Assembly (NCBI RefSeq): GCF_026210795.1
Contig: NC_089429.1
Location: 7,130,001-7,194,000 of the forward strand
Direction: 5' to 3'
Origin: Rhizophagus irregularis
Lineage: Eukaryota
Length of the DNA: 64,000 nt
Of the stretch, positions 20,364-58,686 are shown in pieces; position 1 is the stretch's first letter; every line of letters begins with the position of its first letter. Position numbers and translations under genes: made by a program. The notes under the pieces are model-generated. The model was given only the letters and a program-made list of their open reading frames with translations, had not been told where the DNA came from and searched no databases.

Positions 20364-22400
20364 CTAATAAAAAAAAGATAATGAAATTAAATTAATAAAA
20401 CTAGTTCACTAAAAGAAATATATTCAAAAAAAAAAAATACTTTGGATTTTTCTTACCAAAATTCTACGCTTCCAAAGACCTGGTCATCTGGTCATCTAGA
20501 AAAAAAAGATAAAAATCAAAACGTTAGTAAGACGTTTCATTAAAAGAAATAAATCAGAGAAAACTCCAATACTCACTGAAATCTACGTGTCCAATAAACC
20601 GGTTGTCTAAAAAAAAAAGAGAAGAATTGAAGTACCTAAATCCAACGTGTTCAGACCAAAGAGTAAGCCATCTAAAAAAGGGAGATAACGAAACGTTAGA
20701 AATAGTTCATTAAATAAATAAAACTTTCCGATTTCTTACCAGAATCTAGAATACAAGAACTGTCTAAAAAAAAATAATAATGAAACATTAATAAACGTTT
20801 CATTAAAATAAAAAAAAAACCCCCATCAAAAACAATGTAACTAACTATTTTTTTGATGTATTACTATTAGATGAAGTACGAGAAGTAGGACGAACCTGTT
20901 TTTCACTTTCAACTGTATTATTACGTTTATTATTATCCTTATCTTTATTAAAATTCCTGATAGACCGGCCGCCTAAAAAAATAGAAAAAAGAGAAACCAA
21001 AACGTTAACAAACGTTTTGTTAAAAAAAATCTTTTAAAGAAAAACAATTACCGAAATCTCACGTGTCCAGAACCGTCTAAAAAAAAGAAAGAACGAAACG
21101 TTAGAAAACATTTCATTCGTTTCGTTAAAACAAATACTTGTCAATATAATATTGATTTGTACTAACACAAAAAATCCCATCTTGATTTTCATCAATAATC
21201 TTTTTTTTTTAGTCGCGGATTGTACCGAAATGATTTTATTCAAATAATGCATGCCATCAAGGTTCGAAGAACAAGCCGTCTAAAAAAGGAAGATAACAAA
21301 ACGTTAGAGACAGTTCGTTAGATAAATAAAATTAAAAAAATCTCTTCTGATTTCTTACCGGAATCTAAAAAAAGAAACGTTAGTAAACGTTTCGCTAAAA
21401 TAAATAAAAAAAAAAATAAAATAAATTGAAGAAAAAAACTTACAAATCCGTGTCAAAGAAGTTTTGAAGAAGCCGACTAAAAAAAAAGAAATAAGACGAA
21501 ACATTAATAAGTGTTTCGTTAAAATAAATAAAAGAAAAAAATTACTTACCGAAAGTCATGTCCAAAGAGCCAAAGACCTGCCTAAAAAGAATAAAAAACG
21601 AAATCGTTAAGTTAACGTTTCGTTATAGTAAAGAAGTTTAAGAAATCAAACTTAAATACCGTAATTCTGCGCGCTTTAAAGACCCCGAAGAAGAAGCCAT
21701 CTAAAAAGAGAAAGAAGACGAAACATTAGTAAATGTTTCATTAAAGAATAATAAAAATGGCCCCCTCTCCTACCAAATTTCCATTCATTCAAGTACTCGA
21801 AGGTCTAAGCCGTCTACTAATGTCCAACCCCCGGAAACCTGAAAGATCTGCCTAAAAAAGAAAAAGAAACGAACTGTTAGTATAGTTCGTTAAAAATAAA
21901 AAAATTAGTATAAAAAAAAAATTAAGACTTACCAAATTCCAAGCCATCATCAATTTATTTTATTTTTGAAGAGCCCTAAAAAAGAAAAAAAAGTGAACTG
22001 TTAATAACAGTTCGCCAAAGTAGCTAAATTAAAGAAAACAAAAAAAAAATGTACCAAAAATTCGCGCGTCAAAAGAAACCAAGAAACCGTCTAAAAAAAA
22101 GTAAGAAAACGAGTCATTAGAAACTAGCTCGTTAAAATAAATATAATTAAAGAAAAAAAAATAGTTTACCAAAATGTCGTGTCCAGGGAGACTAAAATAA
22201 CCGTCTAAAAAAGGATTTTTGGTTTTTTTTGTGGGTGATTTTAACTTTTCTTTTAAACAGAAGAGGGAAAAGAAGAAAGAACGAAGGAAATGGAAATGGA
22301 GAGAGTGAAACTGTGAAAGGAAGAGAACGAAGGGAAGGAAAATGGGAAAAGTGAGAGAGAGGAAAGGAAAAAATGAAAGAGTGGAAAAGGTAAAGAAAAA
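20364..22400 (-). ncRNA. Intron/micro-exon array A (about 14 repeated introns), putative non-coding multi-exon transcript
   Basis: Repeated minus-strand GT(AAGT/AAGA/GAGT/ACAT)...hairpin containing CTAAC/CTAAT/TTAAT...poly-T-TAG introns, e.g. 22091-22169, 21976-22054, 21852-21932, 21582-21659, 21477-21549, 21365-21443, 21280-21358, 20672-20739, 20364-20456; exons mostly 6-78 nt. Confidence 0.6.
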
Positions 22401-22439
22401 AATTTGTAAAAAAAGATTATCGATTTGTTAGTCTATAAT

Positions 22440-22449
22440 ATCACGTGAT
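22440..22449. promoter_or_regulatory. ATCACGTGAT E-box (bHLH/Cbf1-type site) upstream of array A
   Basis: Perfect palindrome ~45 bp beyond the purine-rich (minus strand: CT-rich) first-exon block; same layout as array B. Confidence 0.5.
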
Positions 22450-22849
22450 ATTTTTAATAAATAAGTATTTTAATAATTTGTAATCTTTTACAATAAGCAT
22501 TCAGTAAATACAAAATTTAAACATTTATTAAATTTATTAAATAATTTGTGTTTTAATACAAGTCCAACTTTGTGATAGTCTATTATTGACATATTTCTTT
22601 TCGTTACCATAATAATTAGAATTGGATGATGTTAAAAGACGACCAAATAAGTTTTGGTATTCATCAATGTCAACCTTTGTGATTCCATAAAAGGAACACG
22701 AATTTTGCTGTCATCGTATTTATCAAGATTTCTATTAAATATAAGTTCTGTGGACCATTGTTCATTACGCGAGTCGTAAACTCAATTTTTTAGTTGACGC
22801 TTGAATGAGTCAATCATGTTAGTTGATTTAACACGTTTTAATGTTACTA

Positions 22850-23100
22850 CCGTATTTTGCGGGCCACAGTACCCCCCCTATGCACAGTACCCTACAAAAA
22901 AGAACTCCCATTTTCTACCGATTTTATTATTTAAAATAATTTAATAAATACCTAGGTATTACTCATGATAAATACCCAATTATTATATAAGTTTTATACA
23001 TATCTACTAATAATAAAAACTCACACAATGGTGGGGGGTATAAGGTCAAAACCTCTGAAATCTGTATCATACCCGGGGTACTGTGGCCCCCGTTATACGG
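22850..23100. mobile_element. Tc1/mariner-pogo type MITE
   Basis: TIRs CCGTATTTTGCGGGCCACAGTACCCC / GGGGTACTGTGGCCCCCGTTATACGG; TA on both flanks. Confidence 0.85.
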
Positions 23101-23169
23101 TAATTAAGTATCGATCTTTGATAGGTCAGGTTATAGATAACTTTAGATTTGTATTCCTTTAAGTGTCAC

Positions 23170-23991: not shown

Positions 23992-24226
23992 AGTGTCACT
24001 AGACCAGTTCATTTCTGATCGTTCGGATTTTTGATCGGGTTTTGAGTTGATAATTGTTGATAATTATTGGCTGACAAATTGCGTGACCTGATCAACGAGT
24101 TGATCAACGATCCGAATTCCGAACTTAAAAAAGGTTGATCAAATTTTTATGAGTACCCGACTGCGTAAAAAACACGAAAAAAAACAACACGAAAAAAATA
24201 CGATTTTAACAAAGTTTTAAAAGAAC

Positions 24227-25230
24227 ATGAATCAATTACAATTTAACGGAAAAACTTCAACTAAACGTCCTAACTCTTCTGCTTCTTCTTATGGAGCTGA
24301 AGCTCAAAAGAAAACGCGTTTAGTTTCACGAAAACCGCGTTTAATTTTACCTAAACCAGTTCTTACTGAACCACAACCACAAAATATCATTCTTCAACCT
24401 CAACAGCAACAGCAAAGTGTTCTTTCTGAACCTCCTCAGCAGCACCAGCAGCAAAGTCAGCTTCAAAAGCAAAAGCAACGTATCTTTCCTTCTCAACATC
24501 CTCCTTTTCAAGAGCAATATCAAATACCTCATTTGTCTTCCACTTTAATGGTAAGTTTTGTAATGCATATTTTAACTGTGAATATAAATATTTATTGAAT
24601 TTTATTTTAGATTAGAAATGATGATAAAATTTCTCAACCTAAAAAGACAAGTATTTCTAAACAATCTAAGAAAAAAGATGACGATGACAAAGATCAAGAA
24701 CCTATCGAAAAATCTGGTTGGAAGAATAGTGAAATTGAGATTTTACTTGATTATCTTCAAGAAAATTTCACATCTTGGTCTAAAGGAAATAAAACTAAAT
24801 TTTATAATAATATGGTAAAGAATATTTTACCAAATAAAGATGCAATTGCAATAAAAAGTAAGTTTTTTATTTTAAGCAAATATCTTAATTCTTTTAATTA
24901 ATCTTTTAATTATTTATTCAAGATAAAATTGCACACTTAATAAGAAAATACGAAAGTGTGAAGAAGTATAATAATCAATCTGAAGTGGAACGTAAAGATT
25001 GGGAATGGTATGATATGCTAGATATAATTTTTGAAACACGTGAAAATATATCACCTTCATTTTTGGCTAATAATAATAAGTCAACAGATATTATCGAAAC
25101 TAAAAAGGTAAATAATAAAAAACAAAAGAACAAAAATAATTATGAAGTTATGACTGAAGCAATAACTGAAATGAATCAAACACGTGAAAAAATTTGGGAG
25201 CAGAAAATGATGTTAGAAAGGAAAAATTAG
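24227..25230 (+). CDS. Harbinger Myb/SANT-like DNA-binding protein, 3 exons (24227-24550, 24611-24857, 24923-25230), 292 aa
   Basis: GTAAGT...AG introns join an open frame containing WKNSEIEILLDYLQENF...IKNKIAHLIRKYESVKK...WEWYDMLDIIF. Confidence 0.75.
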
Positions 25231-25342
25231 ATAAAAGTTATGAGTTAACAAGAAAGATTGGCATATAAAAGAGAGCGTAAAAGGTAAGAATGAAAATGGA
25301 ATTTGATTTAAAGGGGAAGGGATTAGAGATTAATGTAATATG

Positions 25343-26528
25343 TTAGTTTTTAGTTTTATAATATAATAAAATCTTTTTCATTTCTCCTGCTCTTTTTAAT
25401 ATATAATTATAATCATTATCATAATCACTATCATCACTGTTATTACTATTATTATTATCATTACTATTATTACTATTATCATTATCATTACAATTATCAT
25501 TATTTGATTCCAAAAAATTATGTAAAATTATACAACATTCAGTTAAACAAACTGCAGTTGATATTTTTCTAATATTTAATTCTTTTAAACAACCAAATCT
25601 ATTTTTAAGTCTACCAAAAGCATTTTTCACTACTACATAATGTAATATTAAATTGTATTTGTAAATTATTTTGAGTATTAGTAAAAGGTTTAATAAGAAA
25701 ATTAGATAATAAATATGCTAAGTCTCCTAATAAATAATCCTATTCTTTTTTATAAATGTAAAAACATTTTGATAAAAAAAAATGAATTTTGATATATCTT
25801 TACATTATGAACTAATTCTGGCTATCCTATTTTATAATAAATAAAAATACTATGATAATTAACAATACCTTGATTCCAATATATTTCAGGTTGTTTTAAT
25901 AGTAAGATTATATGATTACCATCAATAGTACCAATAATATTGCCAAATCCTCCAATATCTTTAAAGCCTAAACAAACCATCTTTTTTATTTATTCTGTTG
26001 GCCATATAACTAATAAATTTTTTAATGAAAGAATAGCTAACATGACTTTCTTACAATAGAGAAAACAGTACTTTTTGATATACCATAACATGTGTAAATA
26101 TATACTAAAAATTTCATTCTTTACTAATTCTTTATAAAAAAATAGCTAGTTGTAATTCAACTGAAGTTTACTATTTATTACCAGTTGATTGAAAAATTAA
26201 ATATGTTTCAATATTAGTTATAAGATTTTAAAAGTTTTGAGAATCCATTCTCATAATTTTTTTAAATCTAATATTATCATATTTAGAAACAATTAAGTAC
26301 TATTACTCTTTAGATTTAGCAATATTACTTTGAAAATGTAACTTTAAATAATGAGATAAAATCTAGTAAAATACATAATTCAAGAAAAATTATTTCATTA
26401 TTTTTAGCATTAAATAGTTCTTCTTTAGAATTATAATTATTTGATTTATTATCAGAATCATCAAAAACTTGACTTGATTTAATAAAAAAATTTATTAATA
26501 AATTTTTAATAGTTTATTAATATGTCAT
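25343..26528 (-). pseudogene. Harbinger (DDE_Tnp_4/HARBI1-like) transposase pseudogene
   Basis: Motifs IIGTIDGNHI, YLLGDLAY, VVVKNAFGRLKNRF (catalytic E changed to K), CCIILHNF; many stops and frameshifts. Confidence 0.85.
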
Positions 26529-32039: not shown

Positions 32040-33361
32040 CACACCCCTACCATAAATTACCGGATTTTTGTCACGTGAATCGGCACATCAGTGTCACAAT
32101 CTGCAATTTCTCCCTATCGCACATATAAACAAAGAAATAAAAAAAAAATGTTTTTGTTACTCTTCTAGTCTTAAATACGTGGAAATGAACTGTCAGCAAC
32201 TAATAAACGTGAGCAGATTATTAGTGCTTATTTGAGTGGCGTCAAACAAAAAATTATTTCCACTCAGCTTGATATACCTACCAGTACAGTAAGTGATACT
32301 ATCAAAAGATATAAAGAAACAGGCTCTGCAATACCTAAGAAATGTTCTGGGTGGCCAAAAATTTTAACTCAACATGATACACGAGTTCTACGACGTATTG
32401 TTCGTACTGATCGGTTTTCTCCTCTAGGTGATATAACAAACAGATTAAACTCCAGCCTTAACACAACTTTGCATCAAAGTACAGTTAGAAGATATCTTCA
32501 TGGAGTAGGTATTAGCAGTTATTCTACACATAAGAAACCTCTTTTAACTGAAAAACAATGAAAAGATCGATTGAGATGGGCTAGAGAAAAACAAAATTGG
32601 GAAGATGAGTGGAAACAGGTAGTATGGTCTGACGAATCAAGATTTGCTCTTTTTGAATCAAATGGTCGAGTAAAAGTGTGGAGAAGTCCTGGAGAAGCCT
32701 ACAATAAAGATTGTATTCAACCTACAGTTAAGTTTGGAGGGGGTTCAGTGATGTTTGGGGTGTGTTTTGCTAATATGACGTGGACTTTCATTGTGATGAT
32801 GGAAACATGAATGACGATTACGTCAACGTTTTAGCTAATCACTTTATACTATAGGTAAATAATTACCCCTGGTTCCATATTTCAGCAAGATGGAGCTTCA
32901 TGTCATACATCAAATTATAGTATTTGGTGGATGAGAACGCATAATGTTCCAATGTTAGACTGGGTGACGCAAAGCCCAGATCTAAACCCGATTGAGAACT
33001 TGTGGGACCATTTGGATCATCAGGTACGAAAAAGGAAGCCTTTGCCTAAATCTAAACAGGAGTTAATTAGTAAGTAGTGGAGGAATGGAGAAAAATAAGC
33101 ATAGAAACATTACACCACCTAATTTTAAGCTTACCTATCGATTTGGCGAGTAATAAAGGCTAAAGGTGGACATACTAAATATTAATTTTATTGGTCCAAA
33201 TTTTTTATATAATAAACTTCATATTCGATATTTTATTTTAAGAAAAAAAAAATATTTAATTATTAAGTGAAAAAATTTTTTTATATATATATAAAATTTT
33301 GAATTTTACGCATAAATTCTACAAATAGTAAAAAAATCTGGTAATTTATAGTAGGGGTGTG
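32040..33361 (+). mobile_element. Tc1-family DD34E transposon
   Basis: TIRs CACACCCCTACCATAAATTACCGGATTTTT / AAAAATCTGGTAATTTATAGTAGGGGTGTG; TA TSD. Confidence 0.93.
32178..33185 (+). pseudogene. Tc1 transposase pseudogene
   Basis: HTH region, VWSDESRF, FQQDGASCH and SPDLNPIENLW (34 residues between D and E), ending GGHTKY*; in-frame TGA at 32559 and frameshifts. Confidence 0.9.
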
Positions 33362-34733: not shown

Positions 34734-37700
34734 CCCGAGACATGGAACAGACTGAGAGCGGATATTGCTAATGCAAAAGAAAGTAACGATAGTAAGACTA
34801 TTCAAGACAATATAGAATTTACATGGAATTATATTACCGAGACACTAGTGGACACAGCGCGCGCTACTTTCCCACACAAGAAAAAAGATCGAAAGTAACT
34901 AACAACAAATTATTTCAACCCGAAAATACACGCGAAACTTAGCAAGGTGGTTGATTCTCATGCTGAATGAGGCGGCCAACCCACGCCAAGATAATAATAA
35001 TGCACATGACTTAAGTCAGGAGCTCAGCGATTGGTTTCCATAGCCACAAAATATAATACAGACTATCCGGACGTGGACGAAACCTATCTAAACCCAAATC
35101 TTGTACCATTAACAACCACTTGGGTAGATCAGGTAAAAGCGGTACTTAAGGCCCGTCAAAAGCATGAACGAGCTAAAATGCTAGCCAAGCAACGTACCGA
35201 AATATCAGAAGCAATAGAAAAGAGGATCCAACAAATTGAGAGCGATCAATCCAAATGGATCAATAATTCGTTGAAAAATCAATTCCTATTGATCGACTGC
35301 TAAAAGTGCACCCCTCGAGTTGTTAATATCACCAGACGACATATCGGAACAAGCAATAGCCTCTATTCACATCAGTTCAGAAAAAGGAGGGTCAGTTTCT
35401 CATCAATCCATGATATGCCACCTTTTTGGCAAAAGATATATGAACCAGTGACTCAGAATGAACAGGTTTTTGATGAAGTACTCACAGAAATTGATGATGA
35501 GGAATGGGATACGATCTTGAAAAGTGTAAACGAAAAATCAGCAGCAGGAGTCATAGGAGTTATTATATTATGATTAAAAAATTACCTCCAAGATTACAGA
35601 ATTTAATTAGATGCGCCCTAAATCTTATACTGACAATGGGTAATCTACCTAACAATACAATTGGAAATTCTCGACCATTATTCCGATTCCAAAACCAGAA
35701 AAATTCAGCTATAACATGGCAAACGTTAGACCTATCGCGCTTTTGGACAATTTTAGAAAGTTATTAACCAAAACAATAAGTATTCGTTTAGGAAAATATT
35801 GTGACAGCAAAATTATTGTGGACTCCCCGGAGACTCCACAACCACCCCAATACAGATAATTAATACTTTAATTGAAGATGCAAAAACCAACAACAAACAA
35901 TTATGGATTATGTTTCAAGATATATCCAATGCCTTTGACTCCATCAGCATGAAAGGACTGAATTTAGCGCTACAACGCGCCAACGCCTGAACCTCCCAGA
36001 TCGTTTGATCACCTTAATTATTAGGCTCTTTACTAACCGAAAAGCCCAGATACTTACAGCCTTTGGAACTACACCTTCTTTCACAGCAGGGGATGGGATA
36101 GATCAAGGCGATAGTCTATCCCCTTTAATAGGCGAATCTACTATGATCCTCTGCTCAAAGCGATCACAACGAGAGATACAACAAAACAGAAACCATATTG
36201 GTTATGAAATCAGCTGTGTATGCCCACCGATCCTGCCAACCCGAATACGTGGGTTAAATACAATAATTCAGTGGCAGTAGCAGCTTATATGGATGACACA
36301 GCGTTCATTGAAACCTCCAAAGAACGTATGCAAGTAATTCTGAACATAGCGAACTCATTTTATAGCACAATGGATATATTTATCAATATCAAAAAATGTG
36401 ACTTGTCATTTTTCAACTCACCATTATCCATAACGGAGAATAAAGTTTACTTGGGGATTCATAAAATGATATCATCAGGATCACAGGCGGGGAAGTTCGT
36501 TATCTAGGGGTCTTCTTGACAGCAAAAGGGCCAGATTATTAAACAAACAAAGGATTGTATAAATCCGAGATATCTTCTTACAAACAGTAGGGAAGAAATT
36601 GCTATCGATTGCTCATGTAGTTTATTTAACTAATAAAGTCCTTTACCTCAGATAGCATATCTCAGTCAGACACTGATAGTCAAAAGGAATGGAAAAACCC
36701 ATATTATCATTCGTTAAGCATACGATAGGAATAGTAAAGTCCAGTTCTAACTCAATCTTATTTCATGAAGGAAATATTGGGTTTGGCAGTACATATTACA
36801 AATTTTATTAAAATCCTGAATTCATCAAACACCGCCACAGATACAACCCTGATTAGGCTCAGACAAGGTTAAATTCAAGCGCGATGCACGACTGATATTT
36901 TTTCAGCAATTTTAAAATATAGGGACGTTTTCAAAGCCATTGACCTTGGTCTAAACTTAATACAAATCGTGTGAAAGACTCGTTCAGGATAGAAGGTCAA
37001 TAGAACCATACTCGATGAATGGATTAACTATTTCACCCGTCATCGTTATTAAAGATGAATAAACCGGCGGATAAATACCCCCTATTCTTTGCCCACCAAC
37101 TTGTAACGCATGATGGACGACATATGATAACATGGGCTCAATCAAGACTCCTCTCCAGACTGTCAGCCAAAGGGAAAAAAGCAATCTGGTTCAAGCACCT
37201 AGAATGGTTGTTCTCGCAAAACGACAGCTCGAGATTACTTAAGGACGGTTTAAGGTATAATCCCCCAGCCTTCTTTAATGATCATTAATGATCATCTACC
37301 GATCCCATCCAAAGACAGGCGAAACAAAGAATGGATTGTATTCAAAAGAAGAAAAGAATACCAAGTAGCCAAAATTACTATGAAATCACACAAGAAGGAT
37401 ATGTTATCCGTAGAAATCTGGAACATAGCTAGTTTTGATCCACATTTGGGTAATTTATACCAACTTGAAAAGCCAGCTCGCAGTTTAACACTTGACATTC
37501 CTAGAAAATCGGCAAGAACACTTAATGTGACGCACAAAGATGGCAACTTTGCGACAAATACCCCGCTAAACTTAATTACAACAAATTGCCTTTGTGTGAT
37601 ATCAACCAACAATCAATACGCAGATGGAAGCCCAGTCTCATTGCACCAATGACGATTCGTCTCCGACATCAATCAGTGAATCAATAGAGTACAGTGAATC

Positions 37701-39558
37701 GGATATCGCCTCCACGCCGGCTATAGTAATTGACCAAGATCGGTTAATAGATATAAGGTTCGGCTCTTCGGATTTAGCTAAGACTTTAATGGACGCCAAA
37801 AAACGTTTGTTAACACTAAGTCAACTAAAATTTTATACCGATGGTAGTCTTAAAAAACGCTCCCATGGTAGTATCATAGACAGCAATGCTAGATCGAACA
37901 TCAAATGGGACCCAAATACTAATGAGGTAGCGCAAGGCGCAGCATTTTATTGAAATTACAACAGAACAACATGTTGTGTCGCGCATTGACAATTGGCCAT
38001 CTTCGACCAGGGCGGAAATATATACAATTTTACTGGCGTTACTTACTTGTTCAAATGGATCGAAAGTGCTCATATATACAGACAACGCGGCAGCGATACA
38101 AGCAATTAATGGAATATTAGGCACCAGACCGAGAAATTTTAGTTAGAAATAATTTTTTATTATTATATAGAATTTTTAGAGTAGTTAGAAAGGGTAATTT
38201 AGATTTAGAACATAAAGTAAAAGGACACAGTGGGTATATATGGAACGAGAAAGTAGATGAATTAGCCAAACTCGCTAGTACTAGCCCTTCGACTCAATTC
38301 AACCTAGCCCACGATGATATAAACTTTTTACCAACGATCGATAATATTAAGAACATGATACAATTTTTTAATGACGCGCAATGGACTGTAATCAAGATGC
38401 CTTAATAGATCGTATAAAGATTACGACTGGGATGTCACATGGAACGCTGTGAAATAAGTCAAACATTTCAAATGCACAAGTTCTATTCGCAACAAATTCT
38501 GGGCGTTTTGGGTTAAAAAATTGCTGAACAACCTATTACCGATAGGAAAACTGCTCCAATTACGTTCCAACGCTGTACAAAAATTTCACTTGCCCAATGT
38601 GTAATATAGAAGATGAAAGGTAGCACATATTGGTTCATGTACAGGACACAGAGCAATAGAAGCCAAAGCGGCAATTTCACTCGTCCCTGCTTACCATACT
38701 ACAAAGAGACTTAAATTTTAAAGCCAAAGCGGCAATTTTCACTCGTCCCTGCTTACCATACTACAAAGAGACTTAAATTTTAAATCAACAGCAAGCGGAC
38801 AATTTTCTCAAAAGATTAATTGGAATTTCTGTGACTTCAGAGGGGTTTTCATCGATCTTTCAGGATGCAATAAAAGGAAAAATCGACGCATCCATGACGA
38901 ATAAAGCGTCAAAACTGTTTAATTTTACCAGGAATAAATGTATTACATTTTGTACCAAATTGCTAACTATCATGTTACCCAGATTTTCATAGAATGGTGG
39001 ACTTCCAGATGTCAGTTGACCGTTCAGTGGGAAAGTACAAACGGTATCTCCACCTTAATGAACAGATCGGTCAGTAACAACAAACATAACAACTCTGTCC
39101 GGCGTAAACCACGGTCAAACAGTGATGAATTTGAAACGTACGACGGCCCAATGCGTAACATTGTCGACTCTAGAGGAGGTACTCTAATCAAGCCAGCTGA
39201 ATGTTTCGCCAGGTCCCTCCGAAAGATGATGGATCAAGCAGGATTATTCGCTCAACAAAATCGTTAGAAGGGTTAAATTGGGAATTTTGATCTTTATTTA
39301 GAGATTGGAACCTGTAGATTTATTTATTATTTATAGTCTTATTTTTATTTTATTTCTCAGATTAGTTATAATGTTTAATTTTAATCAATTCAAATTTTGG
39401 TATACTAGGTTTATATTTACAATTTAGTTTCAGCGGTGTGGCATGGGATATATCTGCAGGCGGGTAGGGTATAATCTATTTAGAATAGGATTTGGTTCTT
39501 GTAACTTTTCCTTTAAATAAGGAATACTGCTCCCTTTGAGTATAATAATAATAAAAAA
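34734..39558 (+). mobile_element. 5'-truncated LINE with RT, RNase H and C-terminal zinc-finger remnants (frameshifted)
   Basis: RT motifs QDISNAFDSI, GIDQGDSLSPL, AYMDDT; RNase H motifs FYTDGS, SSTRAE, IYTDN, KVKGHSG..WNEKVDELAK; CPMC; (TAA)n/poly-A tail; 16-bp TSD AAAATTTAAAAGTTAA (34718-34733) and AAAATTTTAAAGTTAA (39559-39574). Confidence 0.92.
38660..38784 (+). repeat. ~62-bp tandem duplication inside the LINE
   Basis: AAGCCAAAGCGGCAATTT...AGAGACTTAAATTTTAAA occurs twice. Confidence 0.85.
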
Positions 39559-48682: not shown

Positions 48683-50389
48683 TTTATACCCTAAATTTCT
48701 TTATCATACATGTAAATATGTGATTTACGCAATATGTATTAAAGAAGCTAAACCATTTTTGTATTTATTAACATAAATTTTGCATAATAAAGTAAATCGA
48801 ATAAAAAATTATTCGTGTTATAAAAAAAAAAATATCAGTTGACTTTTGAAAACAAATTATTAAAACGTTGCAATTAATTTAATGACTTATCGGAAGTTTG
48901 CGCCGAATGATTTCGAAAGAAAATTCTCTCTGAATTGTTTTTATTTACATGTTTTATGATCAAAATAAATATATTTGGATAATCAATTGATTAATTCATG
49001 TTCTTATTCTATATTTGAAATCATTTTTTTTTAGATTTTCGTAAGATAATCAATATTTGATTTATTTAATTAAAACTGAAAAGTTATAAAAAAAATGTTA
49101 AAAGTTAATTAATGAATTGATACACCAAATAAACTGAACATGATGTGCGAAACGATACTTTTATCTGATATATCTGATATCGTGTTTTTTTTAAATGTAT
49201 CTATGCATGTAGATCTATTGTATTTGTATGATACCATGATCGGAATGATATTTTAATGCATCAATATAAGAGAAATTACACATTATTTTTAAAAAAGTAA
49301 TAATTTATCTAAATTTGTTCATTTGTATTCATTCATTTGATAAGAAATTACTTTACTTTGGGCCAAATTTTTTTTTTTAAAAAAAAATAAAAATAAAAAT
49401 AAATAATAAAATAAAAAATTCATATGAATTATTTTTTGTGTGGTAAAATTATGCGATACATTTCCTGTAATGTTTCACATACGTTTGCATCAATTTAATT
49501 GATTTTTAAAAAATATATAATATTTATTTTTTTGATTCATCTTTTTCTTTTTACGGAATTTTATTATCGTAATGAATTGCATATGATATCAACTGAACCT
49601 ATTGTTCTCTCACTTGCATATCTGCGTAATTGTTTATAGACGCCTAGTACAAACTCATGGAATCTCCTTGTTATATCCTCATTATAAATCAAAGAATTTG
49701 GATTTTTTTGGTCTGCATTATTTATGATCTTGGCCGGAATTATAAAGGTTATTACAATAAAAAGGGTTTACCACGAAATCCCGACAAGCACAATCCCGAT
49801 ATAATAAAATCCTGAGGCACATATTCCCGACTAAGACAATATACTGAACGATCAAAATCCCGAAAGTATCATATCCCGAATGGTCTAAAATCCAGTATTT
49901 AAATTTCCTGAAAGTTCAAGTTACTGATGAGTCAAAATCCCGACACAATATTATATTTTAAGTATCTGTTTGATTTTTGTTTACTAGGAAGATCATTTCC
50001 TACTGATTATATAATTTGCGGCAATTAATACAATCATACATATGCACTTTGATTTCAAATTTAAATTAATAAATTTAATGAATAAAATTCATAAAAATTG
50101 CAATTTTGATTTATGACTTACATGTTACAGTATATTTATTTGCATAAGCTAATCTAGCATAAATTAATCTAGCAATACAGACTATCACAGGTCGAACAGA
50201 TGTCATTGTCGCAAAATTTGCCTGGAATTTTTCTGGCAAATTGAGAATTATCCCGGTAAATTGAGGTAAATTGTGTTACAATTTTGGGATAATGGAGGAC
50301 TTACAATTTGGCAAATTTTGTCAAAATGGCGGAATTCCTACAGAATTCCTAATTCAAATGTTGAGAAATTTTTCAGTAAATTATCATTA

Positions 50390-50990
50390 AATTGTGGGAA
50401 ATTTTAGGCAAATTTTTAGTAATGTTATGCAAACGAAGTGTAAATTGTGGTGAATTTAGTTAAATTTTTAGTAATTTTATGCAAACTTAATGTAAATTGT
50501 GGTGAATTTTAGGCAAATTTTTAGTAATTTTATGCAAACGAAGTGCAAATTGTGGTGAATTTAGTTAAATTTTTAGTAATGTTATGTAAACGAAGTGCAA
50601 ATTGTGGTGAATTTAGTTAAATTTTTAGTAATTATATGTAAACGTAATGTAAATTGTGGTGAATTTAGTTAAATTTTTAGTAATGCTATGCAAACGAAGT
50701 GCAAATTGTGGTGAATTTAGTTAAATTTTTAGTAATGTTATGTAAACATAATGTAAATTGTGGTGAATTTAGTTAAATTTTTAGTAATGCTATGCAAACG
50801 AAGTGCAAATTGTGGTAAATTTAGTTAAATTTTTAGTAATGTTATGCAAACGTAATGCAAATAGTGGTAAATTGTAGTGTATTTTTAGTAATATTATGTA
50901 AATTGTTGAAAATTTAGGTGAATTTTTCAGCAATGTTGTGCAAACGTAATACAAATTGTGGAAAATTGTGGTGAATTTTGCATTTTTTTG
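50390..50990. repeat. Subterminal minisatellite, ~52-bp unit
   Basis: AAATTGTGGTGAATTTAGTTAAATTTTTAGTAATGTTATGCAAACGAAGTGC repeated about 10 times. Confidence 0.9.
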
Positions 50991-51360
50991 GTAAATGTTA
51001 GCTAGATTTTTGAATAATTTAGTGAAATTTAGGATAATTTCGGACAATTGAGTGAAAATGTTTTACCGATTTTGGACAATTGAGTGTAAACGATATAAAT
51101 GCAACATTTTCGAAGATAATTTAGTGAAATTTTGCAATAATTTCAGATAATTGAGTGAAATTTTTGGACAATTGAGCGAAATTTAGTAATAATTTTAAAC
51201 AATTTAGTGTAAACGCCATGACAATTTAAAACACTGATTTATAATCTATTATAATTTTATTTATTAATAAATGCACAATTATTATTATTTAACGATAATC
51301 TATATTTATCAGATATCCGATAATCTATGGATAATCCGCACCAGTGCCAAAATAGAAAAC

Positions 51361-53960
51361 CTAAAAAAGAAAAAAAATGAAACATTAATATACATTTCGT
51401 AAAAAAAAATAAATTAAAGAAACATTTCGAAGTTATATACCTTCGAAATGTTGAATTCCATACGTCCAATAAGCCGCCTGAACCTAAAAAAGAAAAAAAA
51501 ACGAAACATTAATTTATGTTTCATGAAAAAAATTAAATTAAAGAAACATTTCGAAGTTATATACCTTCGAAATGTTGAATTCCATACGTCCAATAAGCCG
51601 CTGAACCTAAAAAAGAAAAAAAACGAAACATTAATTTATGTTTCATGAAAAAAATTAAATTAAAGAAACATTTCGAAGTTATATACCTTCGAAATGTTGA
51701 ATTCCATACGTCCAATAAGCCGCTGAACCTAAAAAAGAAAAAAAATGAAACATTAATTTATGTTTCGTGAAAAAAATTAAATTAAAGAAATATTTCGAAG
51801 TTACATACCTTTGAAATGTTGAATTCCATACGTCCAATGAGCTGCTGAACCTAAAAAAGAAAAAAAAACGAAACATTAATAACCGTTTCGTTGAAAAAAA
51901 TAAAAATAAAAAATATTTTGAAGTATACCTTCGAAATATTGAATTCTGGTCTGTCCAATGGCCGCCGAACCTAAAAAAAAAAAAATGAAGCGTTAATAAA
52001 CACTTCGTTGAAAAATAAAATAAAAAAATTTCGAAGTATACCTTCGAAATATTCCCTTTCGTTTTCCCTTTCCCTTTCGTTCTCACCCTTCCCTTTCGTC
52101 TTCTCTTTCGTTTTCTCTTTTCCTTTACATTTTTCACCTTTCCCTTTCATTTTTCACATTCCCCTTTCGTTTTTCACCTTTCCCTTTCGTTCTCATCTTT
52201 CTCTTTCCTTTCGTTCTCACCTTTCCCTTTCATTCCTTTAACCTATAAAAAAACAAAAAATAAACGAAACTTAAATAATGTTTCGTTATATAATAAAAGA
52301 ACACCCCACCAAATGCCCGGAGTTTCCTTTGTCTCCTCCAATTACTTGGATGGGTTCTTCAATTCATTCACCTTTGCCAAGCACTTTCTTTTTGAACTTC
52401 TTAACCATTTTAGTTCCAATTTGGCAGAAGTGGATGTTAAGGTGATCTATAAAAAAAATTGAAACGTTAGTTAACGTTTCGTTAAGAAATAAAGAAAAAA
52501 ATATAAACAAAAACAAATTTTCCTTTATTACCTTCCACCCAAAGTCTGGTTCGTGAATTCGTTCCGGCGTTCCTACAAAAAGTAAAGGAAAGAAACGTTT
52601 AATATCGTTTCTTTAAAAAAAAACAATAAATTAAGTTTCGCAACGATTCGTTGCAAAACTCACTGGGTCGTTTCATCCAAACGTCCAGAACCTACAAAAA
52701 GAAGGAAAGAAACGTTAGTTAACGTTTCTTTTAATAAAAAAAAAATAAAAAATTAAGTATCGCAATGTAACATTGCGAAACTTACCAGTTCGTTTTTATC
52801 ATTCTAACGTCCGGAACCTACAAAAAGTAAAAAAGAAACGTTAATATAAACGTTTCTTATAATAAAAAAAATAAAAATTAAGTTTCGCAATGTAATATTG
52901 CGAAACTTACCATCATCCTAACGTCCGGAACCTACAAAAAGTAAAATAAAGAAACGTTAGTTAACGTTTCTTAAAAAGAAATAAATAAAAATAAAGTTTC
53001 GCAACACAATGTTGCGAAACTTACCGGTTCATTTCGAACTCATCATCCAAACGTCCGGCGTTCCTACAAAAAGAAAAAGGAAACTTAGAAACGTTTCCTT
53101 ACAAAAAAAAGAAAAAAATTTTTTTCTTAAAAGTTTCGAAGCGTACAACAACACGCTTCGAAACTTACCGATTCGCCTTCTAAAGTCGAATATCGAAAAA
53201 TCTCTACAAAAAAAAAATAGGAAACGTTAGAAACGTTTCCTTACAAAAAATTAAAAAAAAATAATTTTTTTTAAAAAGTTTCGAAGCGAAACGCTTTGAA
53301 ACTTACCCTTTCAGTTCCTTGCTTCCCGAAGTCGAATACCGAAAGACCTACACAAAAAAAGAAAGAAAGGAAACGTTAGAAAAGTTTCCTAAAGAAATTA
53401 AAAATTTTCAAAAAGTTTCGAACATATGCTTCGAAACTTACCATTTCGAATCCCAAAGAAGCATGCCGAAGGACCTACACAAAAAAAAAATAAGAAACGT
53501 TAGATACGTTTCCTAAAGAAATTAAAAAAAAAACACTGTTTTGAAGTGAACTCGCTTCGAAACTTACCCTTAATTTCCTAAATTTCCGAAATCGAATATC
53601 GAGATCTAAAAAAAAAGAGAGTATAGGAAGCGTTAGAAACGTTTCCTAAAAGAAATTAAAAAAAATATATTAAAAGTTTCGAAGCGAACGCTTCGAAACT
53701 TACCATTTCGTTGGAATTTTCCGGGAAGGGAAAGGGGAAGGGGAGAGAAAGAGAGGGGAAAAGGGCGAAGGGAAGGGAAATGAAACGAAAAGGGAGGAAG
53801 AGAACGAAAGGGAAAGGGAAAATGGAGGGAGAAAAGGGGGAAATGAAACGAAAAGGGAGGAGGAGAAAGGGAAAGGGAAAATGGAACGAAAGGGAGGGGG
53901 AGAACGAAAGGGAAAGGGAAAGGGAATGAAAGGGAAAGGGAAAGGGAAGAAAGAAAGAGG
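51361..53960 (-). ncRNA. Intron/micro-exon array B (17 introns), putative non-coding multi-exon transcript
   Basis: Introns 53606-53703, 53475-53567, 53348-53441, 53204-53306, 53064-53168, 52932-53024, 52818-52910, 52692-52785, 52573-52663, 52447-52531, 52243-~52309, 51971-52041, 51851-51928, 51729-51808, 51607-51686, 51484-51564, 51361-51440; all GT...TAG; exons mostly 21-43 nt. Confidence 0.7.
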
Positions 53961-54050
53961 ACGTGAGAAAAAAAAATTAAGCTTTTGCTAAAAAAAGCTT
54001 AATTTTTTTTTTCGTTATACCGCAGCTGAAGCTGCGGTAATTATTAAGTA

Positions 54051-54073
54051 ATATCACGTGACGCACGTGATAT
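54051..54073. promoter_or_regulatory. Double CACGTG E-box upstream of array B
   Basis: ATATCACGTGACGCACGTGATAT ~90 bp beyond the purine-rich first-exon block. Confidence 0.5.
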
Positions 54074-54479
54074 ATAATTTTATATAAATAGGGGCTTTCC
54101 CCCGCCCCAGAATTTTTTTTTTTATTTTAATAATTTTAAATAGATGTATATATATATATTATATATATATATATATATATCTATTAACTAATACTTTACG
54201 AAAAGCCCCTCCTCTGTAAACAGGTAGAGGTCATAAAGTACCTATAGGGGAGAGCCATTGCTGCTCCCTCCGCCTGTTTATAGTGACAAAAAGAGGGAGT
54301 CTTCAGTAGTAAGGTTTAGTATTAAATTACATCACAACACATCGTGTTATATTAACAATGTGTTTAATGTTAAATAATGCGTTTAAAATATAAATATTAT
54401 AAATTTAATAATGTACGTAATTAAATAAATAAAAATTATCATCAATTTTTAATGTAATTAAGTGTAATGCTACGTTATC

Positions 54480-55500
54480 CAATGTAATTGTAGTATTTTT
54501 TTGTGTTTTTTAGTGCAATTCCGCGTTTTTTAGTGCAATTCCGCATTTTCTAGCATAATGTTACATTTTCCAGTATAACGCGAAATTTTTTAAAAAAAAA
54601 ATGATAATTGTGGTACTTTTTAGTGTAATGCTACATTGTCTAGTGCAATTGTGGTATTTTTTAGTGCAATTCTGAATTTTCTAGCATAATGTTACATTTT
54701 CCAGCATAACACGAAATTTTCTAAAAAATATGATAATTGTGGTACTTTTTAGTGTAATGCTACATTGTCTAGTGTAATTGTGGTATTTTTTAGTGCAATG
54801 CCGCATAATCTAGTATAGTGCTACATTTTTTAGTATAATTTAATGTAATGTGGAATTTTCCAAAAAATGAGATAATTGTGATGCTTTTTAGTGTAATTTG
54901 GTGAAATGCTACATTTTCCAGTGTAATGCTATATTACTGAGCATTTTCAAAAAAAAATGTAAAATCTTAACATTCTGACGAAAATGAAACATTTTGACCA
55001 AAAAAACGTAAAATTTGCTGAAAATATGCAACATTTGACAGAAAATATAGAATTTTCATTAAAAAATACACCATTTGCAAGAAAATCGGAATATTTGACA
55101 AAATTTGAATTTAATTGACAATGTTATAACAATTTTATGAAATGTTGTTACAATGATATCACATTGAAGATAAAATGTGGCATTTTCATAAAAATGCACC
55201 ATTTGCAAGAAAATTGGAACATTTGACAAAAAAAAAGCAAAATTTGATTTTAATTGACAATGTTATAACAATTTTATTAAATGTTATTACATTTGAGGTA
55301 AAATGTGAAATTTTCATAAAAATGCACCATTTGCAAGAAAATTGGAACATTTAACAAAAAAAAAGCAAAATTTGATTTTAATGACAATGTTATAACAATG
55401 TTACGAAATGTTACAAAAATGTTACATTTGAGATATAATGTAGCATTTTCCCAAAATTTCATAAGATTTGCTAAATCGGACAATGTTGTAACAATGCTAT
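54480..55500. repeat. Right subterminal repeats of the CACAG element (two families of ~127-131 bp units)
   Basis: TAGTGCAATT...TGTGGTATTTTT duplicated at ~54531 and ~54662; CACCATTTGCAAGAAAAT...ATGTTATAACAA three times at ~55068, ~55197, ~55325. Confidence 0.8.
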
Positions 55501-55690
55501 TCCAAAAAATTGCTCAGCGTAATGCAGCATTTTCCACAATTTCCCACCATTTTCCAGGAAAATGGGGAATTTGCATTTTTTGAATTTTGGACAATGGCGC
55601 CCCTTCGACCTGTGTATTACTACTCATATTACATATAACTATGTAAAATTCCATTCACTAATATAAATTCTAAAATAATTCATCTTAAAA

Positions 55691-57132
55691 TTAAAAAGAA
55701 AGATTGTGGGCAATACCACGAAGAAATTCCATAAGTGAACGGTTACTTCGCTCATTAATAATTGACATAATCCTATTTTCTCTTTCAATCCAAACTTTTT
55801 TCTGCTTCTTTCTTTGTTCTCCACGTATAATACATTCAATTTGAAGCTCAACCTGCTGCTGTTCTCTTTGAATCTCATTAATAATAGTGAAAAGTCCTAC
55901 ATGGATTCACCAACCAGAACTTCCCATCTACGATGCCATGCCTCAACTACATTTTGGGTTCTTGGAATCCCCAATTGGATAGAGTCATATACCGACCACA
56001 ATTGTGGTGGAAAAGGAAGTGCAGAACGAACCACATGGCCATTTCGCATTTCTCGGCGAATTCTCTCAAGAACATAATTGTCTTCAAACCATTGCACCAA
56101 ATCATTGGCCTCTTGAGGCATTTGTGGTTTTAAAATATTAAAAGCTGCGGGTATTTCTTGAGAGGGTAAAAAGGCTAAAGCAAATAAATGTCGTACCATA
56201 ATGCTAAAATGCTCATCATTTCCATATTGAATCGCTAATCCACATCTTTGTATTTGCCGCCACCCATTTTGACAAAGATGAAAAAAACATCCTTTATTAT
56301 TGGTATCAGGAAATTTACTACGTGATACATTAATTGCTGCCAACTCAAAATCAGTAATGATACTTTGTGGCTTTAATTCAATATCATTATCTTCGGCAAA
56401 CTCAATTAAATTTTCAAATAACCACCTGTATAGCACCTCAGATTTACGAGTCATAAGTGCATACACCAGTGGAAGAATCCTAGAATTGTCTTCAGCACCA
56501 ACAGGTGCGTGTATTGTGTACATTTGATGGAATATGGTAGGAACAGTCTTAAATGTTCCGTTCATAATCCAAAATAATGCATTAGCTAAGTGCTGGATAT
56601 TTTCTCTTGTAGTAAATAGAAGGATTCGTTCTTGACCAACCATATAATCTTTAACTAGGAAAATATTTCCATGCAATGTATGACAAAGTGATTCTGGTAT
56701 GTTTATTTCAGTAATATTTTGTGGCTGAGGTGGCATTTCTGATTTTCTAACACGGCTAATTGTTCTACGAAGAGCATTAGGTGATGGGATGTAAGGATGA
56801 ATTTCTTCTGGAATACTAATAATATTATCTTGAATTATTTTTGCGGGTTTATCTCTTGTTTCAGAAGCTTGACGCTTGATCTGAGCAGTAAGTTTTGCGA
56901 CTCCAGCATCACTTGCTTGAGGTGCGTGATTATGATCAGTACAACTTCGAAGATAATGCAAGTTATTACATAAGGTTGTTACAGCACGGCCTTTACACCC
57001 TTCTGATTTTCTTTTTGCACAACACCAGTAAAATATTGCCTCACGGTTCCGTTCCTTTACCATCAAATAACCTCGAACATTGATTTTATTATTTCCCTTA
57101 TTTGAAGGTACAATATCACAAACCTCATCCAT
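55691..57132 (-). pseudogene. MULE transposase (FLYWCH-type zinc finger + MULE DDE), inactivated
   Basis: FYWCCAKRKSEGCKGRA...HNH; WIMNGTFK (consensus DGTF, D changed to N), ITDFE, GCFFHLCQ, RTQNVVEAWH; frameshift near 55900, after which VGLFTIINEIQREQQQVE...FLRGIAHNLSF* continues. Confidence 0.92.
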
Positions 57133-58686
57133 TATTACAAGAAGTTATATGGTTAAATTATAATGAAGAAAATTAAGGTTTATGAAAAGTGTTTTACAAT
57201 GAGGAAAGTTTTTGTCTAAAACAAAGGAGACTTTATGATCAGGATTAAAAGTTAATTCTGATCAGATTAATAGTGAGATCACGCAGTAGTAATTGACATA
57301 ATAACTCCTTGCAATTGTGCAATCACTACGATATTATTACATAAATGGTTACATGAAAAAATTTTTTTTTCTTAAGGAGTTATTATTGTGTCGGGATTTT
57401 GACTCATCAGTAACTTGAACTTTCGGGAATTTTGAATTCCAGATTTTGGACTATTCGGGATATAATACTTTCAGTATTTTAATCATTCAGGATATTATCT
57501 TAGTCGGGAATAGGAGTGTCAAGATTTTATTACATCGGGATTATGGTTGTCGGGATTTCAGGAGGATCCCCAATAAAAAATAATTGATATTCTATTGTCA
57601 CATGATAAAAAAAAATTGCAACAATCAACATATGAAATTTAGAATAATTCGTCCAAAAAGGAATAAATCACGGGAAAAAACGTTTCACAATAAATCAAAT
57701 AAAATATTTTTTCAATATATTATTTACAGTAAGTTGATAACAACAAAAATGATTGTACACTTGTATCACAATTCACGGAACGAGAGGTTTTATAATATTG
57801 AAATGATTATAAGTCACAAATGAATGAATAGAACTAATGAAAATGCAAATTTTGTATTTCTGTTAATAGATAACTTTATTAGATTTTATCACCAAGTTCT
57901 TGGAAATTTTAAAAAAAGAAAACAAGTTGAAATTATTAATTCCATCATAATATGCAATTAAAAGCAAGAGCTGTATCGAACTCTCTTTCGATTATTTTAA
58001 TGAATTTTATATAATAATATTTTTGATAAATCTTCGTTTATGGTCATTCAATTGGAGTGTAGGCCAAAATCTTCATAATTCTACCCAAATATGAACGAAA
58101 TCGAAGAAAGGAAAGGTTTTATCCTTTAATATAAATGGAAGGAACGTTTAATGAATAATAAGAATTTCGTGACAATAACGAAATTTTTTAATAAAAGTTT
58201 GTAAATTTGAATTTTGTTTACAAATAATGAAAGTTTGGATTCAATGTAGAAAAGGAAATTTTATAGCCTAGTTATGAAAACGAATTTATTGTATGAATTT
58301 TCGTATTTGATTTTTTTGAACAATTTTCTCTAGAAAGATTTATGTCGGATCATAAAACGCGTAATTGTCGAATCAAAATATAGGGAGATCATCGTGAGAA
58401 AAAAAATGTATTACGTAAAATGGTTTTGAAAAAAAATTCTTTTATAAATGCTTGATGATTTTTTGTAAGATTAACTTCAGATTAAAAATTCTGGACCGAT
58501 TTTCTTAATTGAAATGTGCCATTCTTTTTTTTTTTTAAAAAAAAACAGTAATAGAAGCTATACATGTTGAATATGACGAACTGGCATTATGTGATACAGA
58601 AAGTCACCCTCTTTTAAATTATTTTAAACATGCATGTTTTCTTAAATGTTAGGGAAGCCTACATCGGTTATATAATTTAATTAACA

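What the first reader, a model, noticed from the sequence alone, without database searches (positions are those of the whole stretch)
51361..53960. Repeat-spacer-like array of 17 structured spliceosomal introns separated by micro-exons, carried by a CACAG transposon
Seen: on the minus strand a 70-105 nt unit repeats as GTAAGT/GTGAGT/GTATAT, hairpin, T-rich linker, hairpin containing the CTAAC/TTAAT branch motif, poly-T, TAG. Between units lie variable exons of 38, 33, 41, 35, 39, 21, 32, 28 and 41 nt, two longer exons, then five of 42-43 nt. Exon lengths are not constrained to multiples of 3, and splicing exons 1-6 by hand gives only short ATG-initiated peptides (12 and 37 aa). Established: GT-AG ends, CTRAY branch points and polypyrimidine tracts are U2-type intron signals. 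Inference: this is a transposon-borne transcript whose conserved part is the intron, not a protein. It could be a host RNA releasing many structured intronic RNAs, a spliceosome-stalling substrate feeding RNAi, or a combinatorial micro-exon system. I do not recognise a described system with this layout.
Basis: partly seen in the sequence, partly recalled or inferred. Interest (0 to 1): 0.9.

Follow-up and report, generated by a model that had tools for sequence, protein, structure and literature searches.

The report
Transposon-borne arrays of hairpin introns
Jumping-DNA elements of a mycorrhizal fungus, and likely of its relatives, carry rows of short hairpin-folded introns between tiny exons that keep no common reading frame; related copies are transcribed and spliced, and the splicing itself likely helps the element pass as a host gene and avoid being silenced.

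Summary
Confirmed and extended. Seventeen GT-AG introns (67-129 nt) lie on the minus strand at 53703-51361. They sit inside a gene-less CACAG element (50186-55614, ATA target duplication, CACTA/CMC-like), itself nested in a Mutator element. RNA data from related copies show junctions at exactly the borders of introns 8-11. The spliced exons show no coding signal: 2 of 24 indels keep the frame, ORFs are no longer than in shuffles, and public Rhizophagus irregularis gene models read the same exons in different frames. The conserved part is the intron. A hairpin buries the branch adenosine, and a second hairpin covers or displays the 5' splice site; both show compensatory changes. A second array lies in the same window (22169-20364). 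Twenty-one soil-metagenome loci hold the same intron, always in arrays, some beside CACTA-like, hAT-like or Helitron-like ends. Ten literature searches found no description. Function is untested. I favour a cassette whose job is to be spliced, marking the element as gene-like (0.40), over a slow-splicing trigger for RNAi (0.25). Introns 1-7 and 12-14 have no displayed junction, and no DNA-run control was obtained.

The parts
49764..57570 (-). Host Mutator-like element (MULE): about 190-nt terminal inverted repeats, 9-bp target duplication, transposase gene 57132 to about 55690 with a frameshift near 55897
   Evidence: Inverted arms 49775-49953 / 57381-57559, 87%; identical 9-mer on both flanks; MULE E=2.5e-21 and FLYWCH E=8.4e-10; frame change read
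50186..55614 (.). Non-autonomous CACAG-ended element (CACTA/CMC-like) that carries the array, inserted just downstream of the MULE transposase gene
   Evidence: 11-bp perfect terminal inverted repeat beginning CACAG, 3-bp ATA duplication on both sides; no transposase-sized ORF inside
54450..55480 (.). Left subterminal repeats (20-21, 41, 128-129-nt periods)
50350..51200 (.). Right subterminal repeats (52-nt period, 9.8 copies; 21-nt units)
53965..54108 (-). Putative promoter/leader: palindrome with two CACGTG boxes (54051-54073) and further palindromes
   Evidence: Sequence; stem listed; a TCACGTGA box also precedes array B. Promoter function is inferred; no read start was mapped (table 6 empty)
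53704..53975 (-). Exon 1, CU-rich, inverted copy of exon 12
   Evidence: Local alignment score 119 over about 170 nt against at most 76 in 300 shuffles; duplex -186 kcal/mol; inverted arms I2-I8
52573..53703 (-). Introns 1-9 (type I: donor inside a 5' stem, T-rich linker, branch hairpin, pyrimidine tract, TAG) with exons 2-9
   Evidence: junctions for introns 8 and 9 in related copies
52243..52572 (-). Exon 10, intron 10 (52531-52447), exon 11 (75 nt), intron 11 (52371-52243); branch hairpin only
   Evidence: Joints skipping 85 and 129 nt with CT..AC ends; an independent donor/acceptor scorer chose the same donor
52042..52242 (-). Exon 12, GA-rich, complementary to exon 1
   Evidence: covered continuously together with intron 12 by one contig (table 8)
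51361..52041 (-). Introns 12-17 (type II: hairpin across the exon-intron border with the donor in the loop) and five 42-43-nt exons; recent 122-nt tandem duplication
   Evidence: Period 122, 5.2 copies, 91%; one CT..AC joint from donor 51686 to acceptor 51361 in a contig
20364..22169 (-). Second array (B) of about 15 introns of the same family, mostly with the branch hairpin only
   Evidence: 10 covariance-model hits; 13 introns called plus further acceptors
22170..22450 (-). CACGTG box and CU-rich first exon of array B; no carrier-element ends were identified

Best explanation
This is a spliced, likely non-coding transcription cassette carried by a gene-less DNA transposon, and its likely job is the act of splicing: loading many spliceosomes onto the element would mark it as gene-like chromatin and help it escape silencing. 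Shown: 17 U2-type introns in tandem; junctions at introns 8-11 in RNA of related copies; no frame conservation in the exons; conserved, covarying hairpins over the branch site and the donor; arrays in several kinds of element. Inferred: polymerase II starts near the CACGTG palindrome. The array grew by tandem duplication of intron-plus-exon units. The hairpins slow or order spliceosome assembly, because the UACU part of the branch site is left in a loop while the branch A is paired. This would lengthen spliceosome residence and leave partly spliced RNA. The benefit would act in cis, keeping the element's ends open to a transposase supplied in trans.
For: Splicing occurs at predicted borders: 7 reads in X21, 6 in X22 and a contig in X7, with skips of 85, 91, 94 and 129 nt and CT..AC ends. 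Splice signals are strong rather than weak: donor +3 to +6 is 81-86% consensus and YTRAY is present in 91 of 103 non-redundant introns (the donor figures are inflated by how introns were selected). The branch hairpin is specific to arrays: 15 of 22 array candidates against 1 of 20 intron-like candidates elsewhere in the window. Several carriers seem to consist of ends plus array only: the window element, L064/L065, L080, L081 and L021/L034. Their ends are CACTA-like, hAT-like and Helitron-like, which suggests repeated recruitment. CpG is kept (observed/expected 2.16 in array A, 1.71 in B, 1.13 for the window). Precedent by analogy only: introns counteract HUSH repression even without splicing (PMC8770142, abstract seen); KDZ1 of Cryptococcus carries two non-coding RNAs and moved in an RNAi-proficient strain (PMC11343200, passages seen).
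Against: No chromatin, methylation or small-RNA data were examined. Burying the branch A and the donor should hinder splicing, which in Cryptococcus triggers RNAi rather than protection (PMC5851062, passage). Array A has a roughly 170-bp fold-back that is a natural Dicer substrate. Carriers were found by searching for the intron, so 'ends plus array' is an ascertained sample. Array B has no identified carrier. C>T and G>A are 123 of 305 variant places in X21, which would fit methylation of some copies. HUSH is an animal system and no fungal equivalent was tested.
Confidence: 0.4

Rival explanations
1. The array is a built-in RNAi trigger. Hairpins stall spliceosomes, RNA-dependent RNA polymerase and Dicer turn the stalled or folded-back RNA into siRNA, and the element limits itself or silences sequences captured as exons.
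For: Mean pairing probability of the branch A is 0.73. One contig is spliced upstream but keeps intron 12, and most laid reads hold intron sequence. Exon 1 and exon 12 form a long duplex. One long exon of L050 weakly resembles a TPR repeat (E=0.028, below the cut-off). Stalled-spliceosome RNAi is known in Cryptococcus (PMC5851062). R. irregularis has thousands of small-RNA loci (PMC8647823, passage).
Against: Splice-site sequences are near consensus. No fold-back was noted in array B or the metagenome arrays (inspected by eye, not tested systematically). A gene-less element that silences itself should lose to deletion variants. Intron-holding reads come from an unstranded library and may be antisense or DNA. 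Only 1 of 15 long-exon translations gave a plausible family lead.
Confidence: 0.25
2. The arrays are self-expanding minisatellites of one intron-exon unit, with hairpins made and kept by template switching at the DNA level. Transcription and splicing are by-products.
For: Clear local tandem duplication (periods 122, 114 and 142). Decayed copies exist: lost acceptors in L016, and acceptor-only repeats in L080, L097 and L100. Template switching can mimic compensatory change.
Against: Splice signals survive in arrays only 65-70% alike whose exons have diverged beyond alignment. The donor, branch site and acceptor have a strict one-strand polarity (53 of 83 against 0 of 83 with all three).
Confidence: 0.12
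3. The transcript is a host for RNA products: stable excised introns that bind or titrate splicing factors, or circles of exons 2-11 promoted by the exon 1/exon 12 pairing.
For: Conservation is concentrated in the introns and their folds. The complementary arms flank the first eleven introns.
Against: No Rfam family reaches its cut-off (8 sub-threshold matches). The hairpins sit on the splice signals, which points to a role during splicing. The 'goes back' joints displayed do not fall on splice sites.
Confidence: 0.1
4. The palindromes are DNA docking sites for an element-encoded or host protein (an anti-silencing or TnpA-like factor), embedded in introns so that they cost nothing.
For: The invariant cores are short CpG-centred palindromes. 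Earlier unchecked notes describe palindrome arrays in introns of other fungal transposons.
Against: Outer stem positions change on both sides while keeping pairs (for example column 12-27: 10 two-sided changes in 25 cells), and loop lengths vary from 3 to 8 nt. This fits a fold better than a fixed binding site.
Confidence: 0.07
5. The array is a fast-evolving micro-exon protein gene.
For: With the RNA-supported donor, the spliced window copy has ATG ORFs of 65, 83 and 123 aa. Twenty-two of 29 public models read exon 11 in one frame and 22 of 29 read the 42-nt exon in one frame. A 147-aa model has 9 cluster members.
Against: Two of 24 indels and 1 of 12 net length differences between homologous exons are multiples of 3. 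Nine exon chains have no longer ORF than dinucleotide shuffles (P 0.18-0.91). The 42-nt exon is open in all three frames and is annotated in all three. No Pfam family passes its cut-off, and no convincing homologue exists outside R. irregularis.
Confidence: 0.06

Closest known systems
Introners and fungal introner-like elements; sister stwintrons of Hypoxylaceae (PMC11282704 passages; PMC8469720 abstract)
   Same: Families of similar, structured spliceosomal introns linked to mobile DNA.
   Different: Those are inserted singly into unrelated protein genes and pair end to end. These occur only in head-to-tail arrays with non-coding micro-exons, have two local hairpins, and are cargo of a larger element.
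Spliced transposon-derived lncRNAs of Blumeria hordei (PMC10648671 passages) and the non-coding RNAs inside KDZ1 of Cryptococcus (PMC11343200 passages)
   Same: Non-coding RNAs transcribed from within fungal transposons (shown spliced in Blumeria).
   Different: The Blumeria RNAs average 2.3 exons, under 1.9% have more than five, and many are antisense to transposon genes. Here there are 15-17 introns of one structural family and no overlapping gene. Intron content of the KDZ1 RNAs was not in the passages I saw.
SCANR substrates of Cryptococcus (Dumesic 2013, as reviewed in PMC5851062, passage)
   Same: Transposon transcripts predicted to splice slowly.
   Different: There the introns are poorly spliced parts of transposon mRNAs. 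Here they are near-consensus, structure-masked introns that make up the whole transcript; siRNA production is untested.
Schistosoma micro-exon genes and snoRNA host genes such as GAS5/UHG (recalled, no call)
   Same: Many tiny exons; or short non-coding exons around conserved introns.
   Different: No frame symmetry or ORF, unlike micro-exon genes; no snoRNA match in Rfam, unlike host genes.
Non-autonomous CACTA/CMC elements (defining features recalled from Yuan and Wessler 2011; CMC in fungi in PMC5751038 passages)
   Same: CAC-starting terminal repeats, 3-bp target duplication, subterminal repeats.
   Different: The interior is an intron array instead of transposase remnants or captured genes.

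Membership tests
U2-type spliceosomal intron | GT...AG ends with donor consensus | tested here: met
   strand control
U2-type spliceosomal intron | YTRAY branch motif and pyrimidine tract before the acceptor | tested here: met
   91 of 103 introns, median 26 nt from the end
U2-type spliceosomal intron | Removed from RNA at the predicted borders | tested here: met
   Introns 8-11 and one type II junction in related copies; introns 1-7 and 12-14 had no displayed joint (15 of 40 joints shown)
U2-type spliceosomal intron | Lariat formed at the predicted branch A | not testable with these tools
   needs lariat-enriched reads
CACTA/CMC DNA transposon | Terminal inverted repeats starting CAC and a 2-3-bp target duplication (feature recalled) | tested here: met
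   11-bp perfect repeat and ATA duplication
CACTA/CMC DNA transposon | Subterminal repeats | tested here: met
CACTA/CMC DNA transposon | CMC-type transposase in the element or in an autonomous partner with the same ends | tested here: inconclusive
   None in this copy; no whole genome is held to find a partner, so it is filed as CMC-like only
Introner / introner-like element | Dispersed single insertions in unrelated genes | tested here: not met
   21 of 21 loci hold 2-13 hits each; no hit outside the two arrays in the window; the 110 dropped loci gave 4 weak single hits
Introner / introner-like element | Terminal inverted repeats pairing the two ends of the intron | tested here: not met
   Folds show local hairpins rather than terminal repeats
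Micro-exon protein gene | Frame-preserving exons and one long ORF | tested here: not met
   30 of 75 exons are multiples of 3; 2 of 24 indels keep the frame; ORFs no longer than shuffles
snoRNA/miRNA host gene | Intron holds a known small-RNA family | tested here: not met
   No Rfam match at its gathering score in 50000-56000
Stalled-spliceosome RNAi substrate | Spliceosome-bound precursor and siRNA production | not testable with these tools
   no small-RNA library was offered

The most novel reading that the evidence does not exclude
Glomeromycotan transposons of at least three unrelated kinds have recruited one portable module, a promoter plus a string of hairpin-gated introns, whose only product is spliceosome occupancy. 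It disguises the element as a host gene and so defeats methylation or RNAi. The module may be present in hundreds to thousands of copies per genome and may account for a share of the so-called orphan genes.
Probability: 0.35. Interest if true: 0.92.

Novelty: categorically new. Interest (0 to 1): 0.8.

Why it matters
It would be a class of non-coding locus in which intron architecture is the conserved function. It gives a natural, many-copy test of a standing question: does splicing mark a transcript as self, or does slow splicing mark it for RNAi? It is also a large natural set of hairpins that mask the branch site and the donor, for studying how RNA structure gates spliceosome assembly. Practically, these arrays are already annotated as hypothetical proteins in R. 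irregularis, so they probably inflate orphan-gene counts and belong to the 24% of that genome left as uncharacterised repeats (figure from PMC8647823; the link is my inference). 'Categorically new' refers to the architecture and rests on ten searches of an open-access library; the function is unproven.

Tried and rejected
No whole genome is held, so copy number and an autonomous partner could not be measured. Run search: no RNA holder listed by the index; raw RNA runs came in by species label only. Only 4 of the 24 listed runs were laid, none of them a DNA run, so joined forms were not checked against DNA. The viral-contig scan gave 13 matches, none with the intron context. Of 131 fetched loci I kept 21 by low GC and intron context and dropped 110; the model gave only 4 weak single hits in those. 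Rfam: 8 sub-threshold matches. ESM Atlas: best score 0.78, uninformative. RNAalifold recovered only the first helix of my 32-row alignment, with a covariation term near 0. The branch helix was supported only when I named it (84.6% of cells paired) and by the arm-swap test. One row of that alignment was truncated. A first ORF test with single-base shuffles gave P<0.002 for L016 and 0.03 for L066. Those chains skipped uncalled exons, and the signal vanished with consecutive exons and dinucleotide shuffles. Captured-gene idea: 15 long-exon translations gave two sub-threshold Pfam leads, both from one L050 exon. A bacterial promoter scan does not apply to a fungus. Back-splicing: the displayed 'goes back' joints join homologous exon sequence, not splice sites. 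Earlier-findings look-ups by place and sequence returned nothing. Supplements of the cited papers were not opened; repeat libraries or small-RNA locus tables there could already list these arrays under another name.

Full report
Setting. The window is about 27% GC. The nearest named matches to its sequence are Rhizophagus irregularis gene models, so it is very likely from that arbuscular mycorrhizal fungus or a close relative. No whole genome is held. The finding lies in two nested elements. The outer one (49764-57570) has about 190-nt inverted ends, a 9-bp target duplication and a MULE/FLYWCH transposase. The inner one (50186-55614) has CACAG-starting inverted ends, an ATA duplication and subterminal repeats on both sides, and no transposase-sized ORF. 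These features fit a non-autonomous CACTA/CMC element (features recalled); no partner transposase was found.

The array. Introns 1-9 carry a 5' stem that includes the donor. Introns 12-17 carry a stem across the exon-intron border with the donor in the loop. Nearly all carry a second stem at the branch site. Five array introns fold with z = -3.9 to -6.3, against -0.06 and -1.96 for two stretches spanning presumed introns of another gene in the window. Tandem periods of 122, 114 and 142 nt show growth by local duplication. Upstream are a palindrome with two CACGTG boxes and a CU-rich first exon. That exon is an inverted copy of the GA-rich exon 12 (score 119 against at most 76 in 300 shuffles).

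RNA evidence. Four of 24 listed runs were laid on 51150-54450. In two poly(A) RNA runs, 1014 and 1109 of about 11 million reads were laid. Of these, 7 and 6 reads skip 85, 91, 94 or 129 nt with CT..AC ends, exactly introns 10, 9, 8 and 11 (intron 11 from the donor at 52371). A contig set guessed to be RNA shows all four joints at one depth (18.9), so probably in one contig. That contig runs on through exon 12 into unspliced intron 12. A further contig joins donor 51686 to acceptor 51361. The fourth run showed none of these joints. Limits are as follows. The reads differ from the window and so come from related copies. Only 15 of 40 joints were displayed, and none of them covers introns 1-7 or 12-14. 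The library is unstranded and no DNA run was laid. Between 73 and 89% of laid records run on into unlike sequence; their loose ends read as acceptor-plus-exon of other arrays, so many more arrays exist in that organism.

A family, always in arrays. A model built from 32 introns finds 27 hits in the window, 17 in this array and 10 in a second array at 22169-20364, and none elsewhere. A pattern scan of metagenome contigs returned 119 stretches of an estimated 410. Twenty-one AT-rich loci hold the intron. The model finds 127 hits in them, 2-13 per locus and on one strand per locus (many of these introns built the model, and some loci are near-duplicates). The other 110 loci gave four weak single hits. 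Carriers differ (hAT and Helitron motifs recalled). L080 and L081 have CACAG-type ends and L027 a CACTG-type end. L064 has an hAT-like end. L021 and L034 have a Helitron-like 3' hairpin. In L027 the array faces a protein gene whose best named matches are Rhizophagus proteins at about 74% identity, and that gene's three introns lack the hairpins. Array B has no identified carrier.

What is conserved. Among 103 non-redundant introns from 20 sources, 91 have a YTRAY motif, a median 26 nt from the acceptor. The branch region folds with median z = -3.4. The four bases before the motif's AAC are mostly unpaired (0.13-0.23) and the branch A is mostly paired (0.73). Cognate arms pair better than arms swapped between introns (6.69 against 5.71 of 9, maximum 6.02 in 1000 swaps). 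On the alignment, 12 of 21 named pairs show two-sided changes and 0 of 500 shuffles reach the score. The structure was named by me from these sequences, relatedness is not controlled, and RNAalifold alone recovered only the first helix. Intron-like candidates outside the arrays lack the branch hairpin (1 of 20 against 15 of 22). Anchoring only on the symmetric hairpin, a pyrimidine tract plus YAG follows on the sense strand in 72 of 83 cases and on the other strand in 0 of 83.

What is not conserved. Exons (median 35 nt, 48% GC) are mostly unalignable between arrays. In 17 alignable pairs, 2 of 24 gaps are multiples of three. Nine chains of consecutive exons have no longer open frame than dinucleotide shuffles. 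Public models splice these exons into 'hypothetical' or 'unnamed' proteins in different frames, sometimes switching frame within one model. Hits among 1.8 billion representatives are R. irregularis models or weak low-complexity matches. Against this reading: the RNA-guided splice form of the window copy has ATG ORFs of 65, 83 and 123 aa, and most models prefer one frame for exon 11 and for the 42-nt exon (22 of 29). These ORFs lie largely in GA-rich sequence and in a repeat open in all three frames.

Mechanism. The data place selection on splice signals and on the folds that mask them, not on a product. I commit to the reading that the cassette is there to be spliced. Near-consensus introns at about 120-nt spacing would load the element with spliceosomes, the hairpins would prolong or order that loading, and the element would be treated as a gene. 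The main reason is that several gene-less elements of different kinds consist of little but ends and array, which points to a benefit in cis, although the sample is ascertained. The close rival reverses the sign: masked branch sites, intron retention and the fold-back make an RNAi trigger as in Cryptococcus. No chromatin or small-RNA data were available to separate the two.

Literature. Ten searches of an open-access library found no description of such arrays. Passages seen: PMC8647823, PMC10234402, PMC10648671, PMC7082362, PMC13465315, PMC5751038, PMC5851062, PMC11282704, PMC11343200. Abstract and outline only: PMC8770142, PMC8469720. No supplements were opened. Schistosoma micro-exon genes, snoRNA host genes and the terminal signatures of CACTA, hAT and Helitron elements are recalled. 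Unchecked earlier notes describe a seven-intron cluster in another fungal transposon and palindrome arrays in transposon introns; these are leads, not support.

Verdict. The feature is real and spliced at least in part, is very likely non-coding, and belongs to an apparently undescribed family of intron arrays carried by several kinds of transposon. The architecture is well supported; the function is a ranked hypothesis. Interest 0.8.

Noticed in passing
window 20364-22450 (-): Second intron array with a CACGTG box and CU-rich first exon; two long exons (about 21120-21279 and 20845-20972) look like inserted coding-type sequence but have no Pfam match.
   Followed up: partly
window 22848-23102: About 255-bp element with 35-nt inverted ends (MITE-like), just upstream of array B.
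   Followed up: no
window about 24000-26500: Decayed element with a weak DDE_Tnp_4 match (25343-25717, minus, E=4.9e-5, below cut-off) convergent with a three-exon gene (24221-25230, plus); PIF/Harbinger-like layout (inferred).
   Followed up: partly
window 32175-32561 (+): Tc1-type transposase fragment (HTH_Tnp_Tc3_2, E=2.3e-11).
   Followed up: no
window 35000-38400 (+): GC-richer stretch with broken ORFs that read like reverse transcriptase and RNase H of a LINE-type element (by eye; not scanned).
   Followed up: no
window 4005-4709 (-) and 15743-17314 (+): SWIRM-domain gene (E=1.4e-8) and a 523-aa ORF with an F-box-like start by eye and no Pfam hit.
   Followed up: no
window 54194-54300: A roughly 110-nt piece upstream of the array is shared with a highly covered contig (depth 212, 9 differences) in run X7, so another abundant sequence carries this segment.
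   Followed up: no
L080:1-520, L097, L100: Arrays whose first half consists of 35-45-nt repeats holding only a pyrimidine tract, acceptor and exon, with no donor: acceptor-only units.
   Followed up: no
L065:1087-1116, L067:about 1325-1357: Some arrays end in a donor hairpin with no acceptor after it; a highly covered contig (depth about 920) shows the same ending.
   Followed up: no
L050:261-474 (-): A 214-nt exon that looks like a frameshifted fragment of a TPR-protein gene (TPR_11 E=0.028, below cut-off): possible gene-fragment capture into an array.
   Followed up: partly
L034:1-2301: Two head-to-tail copies of an array-bearing unit ending in a Helitron-like hairpin.
   Followed up: partly
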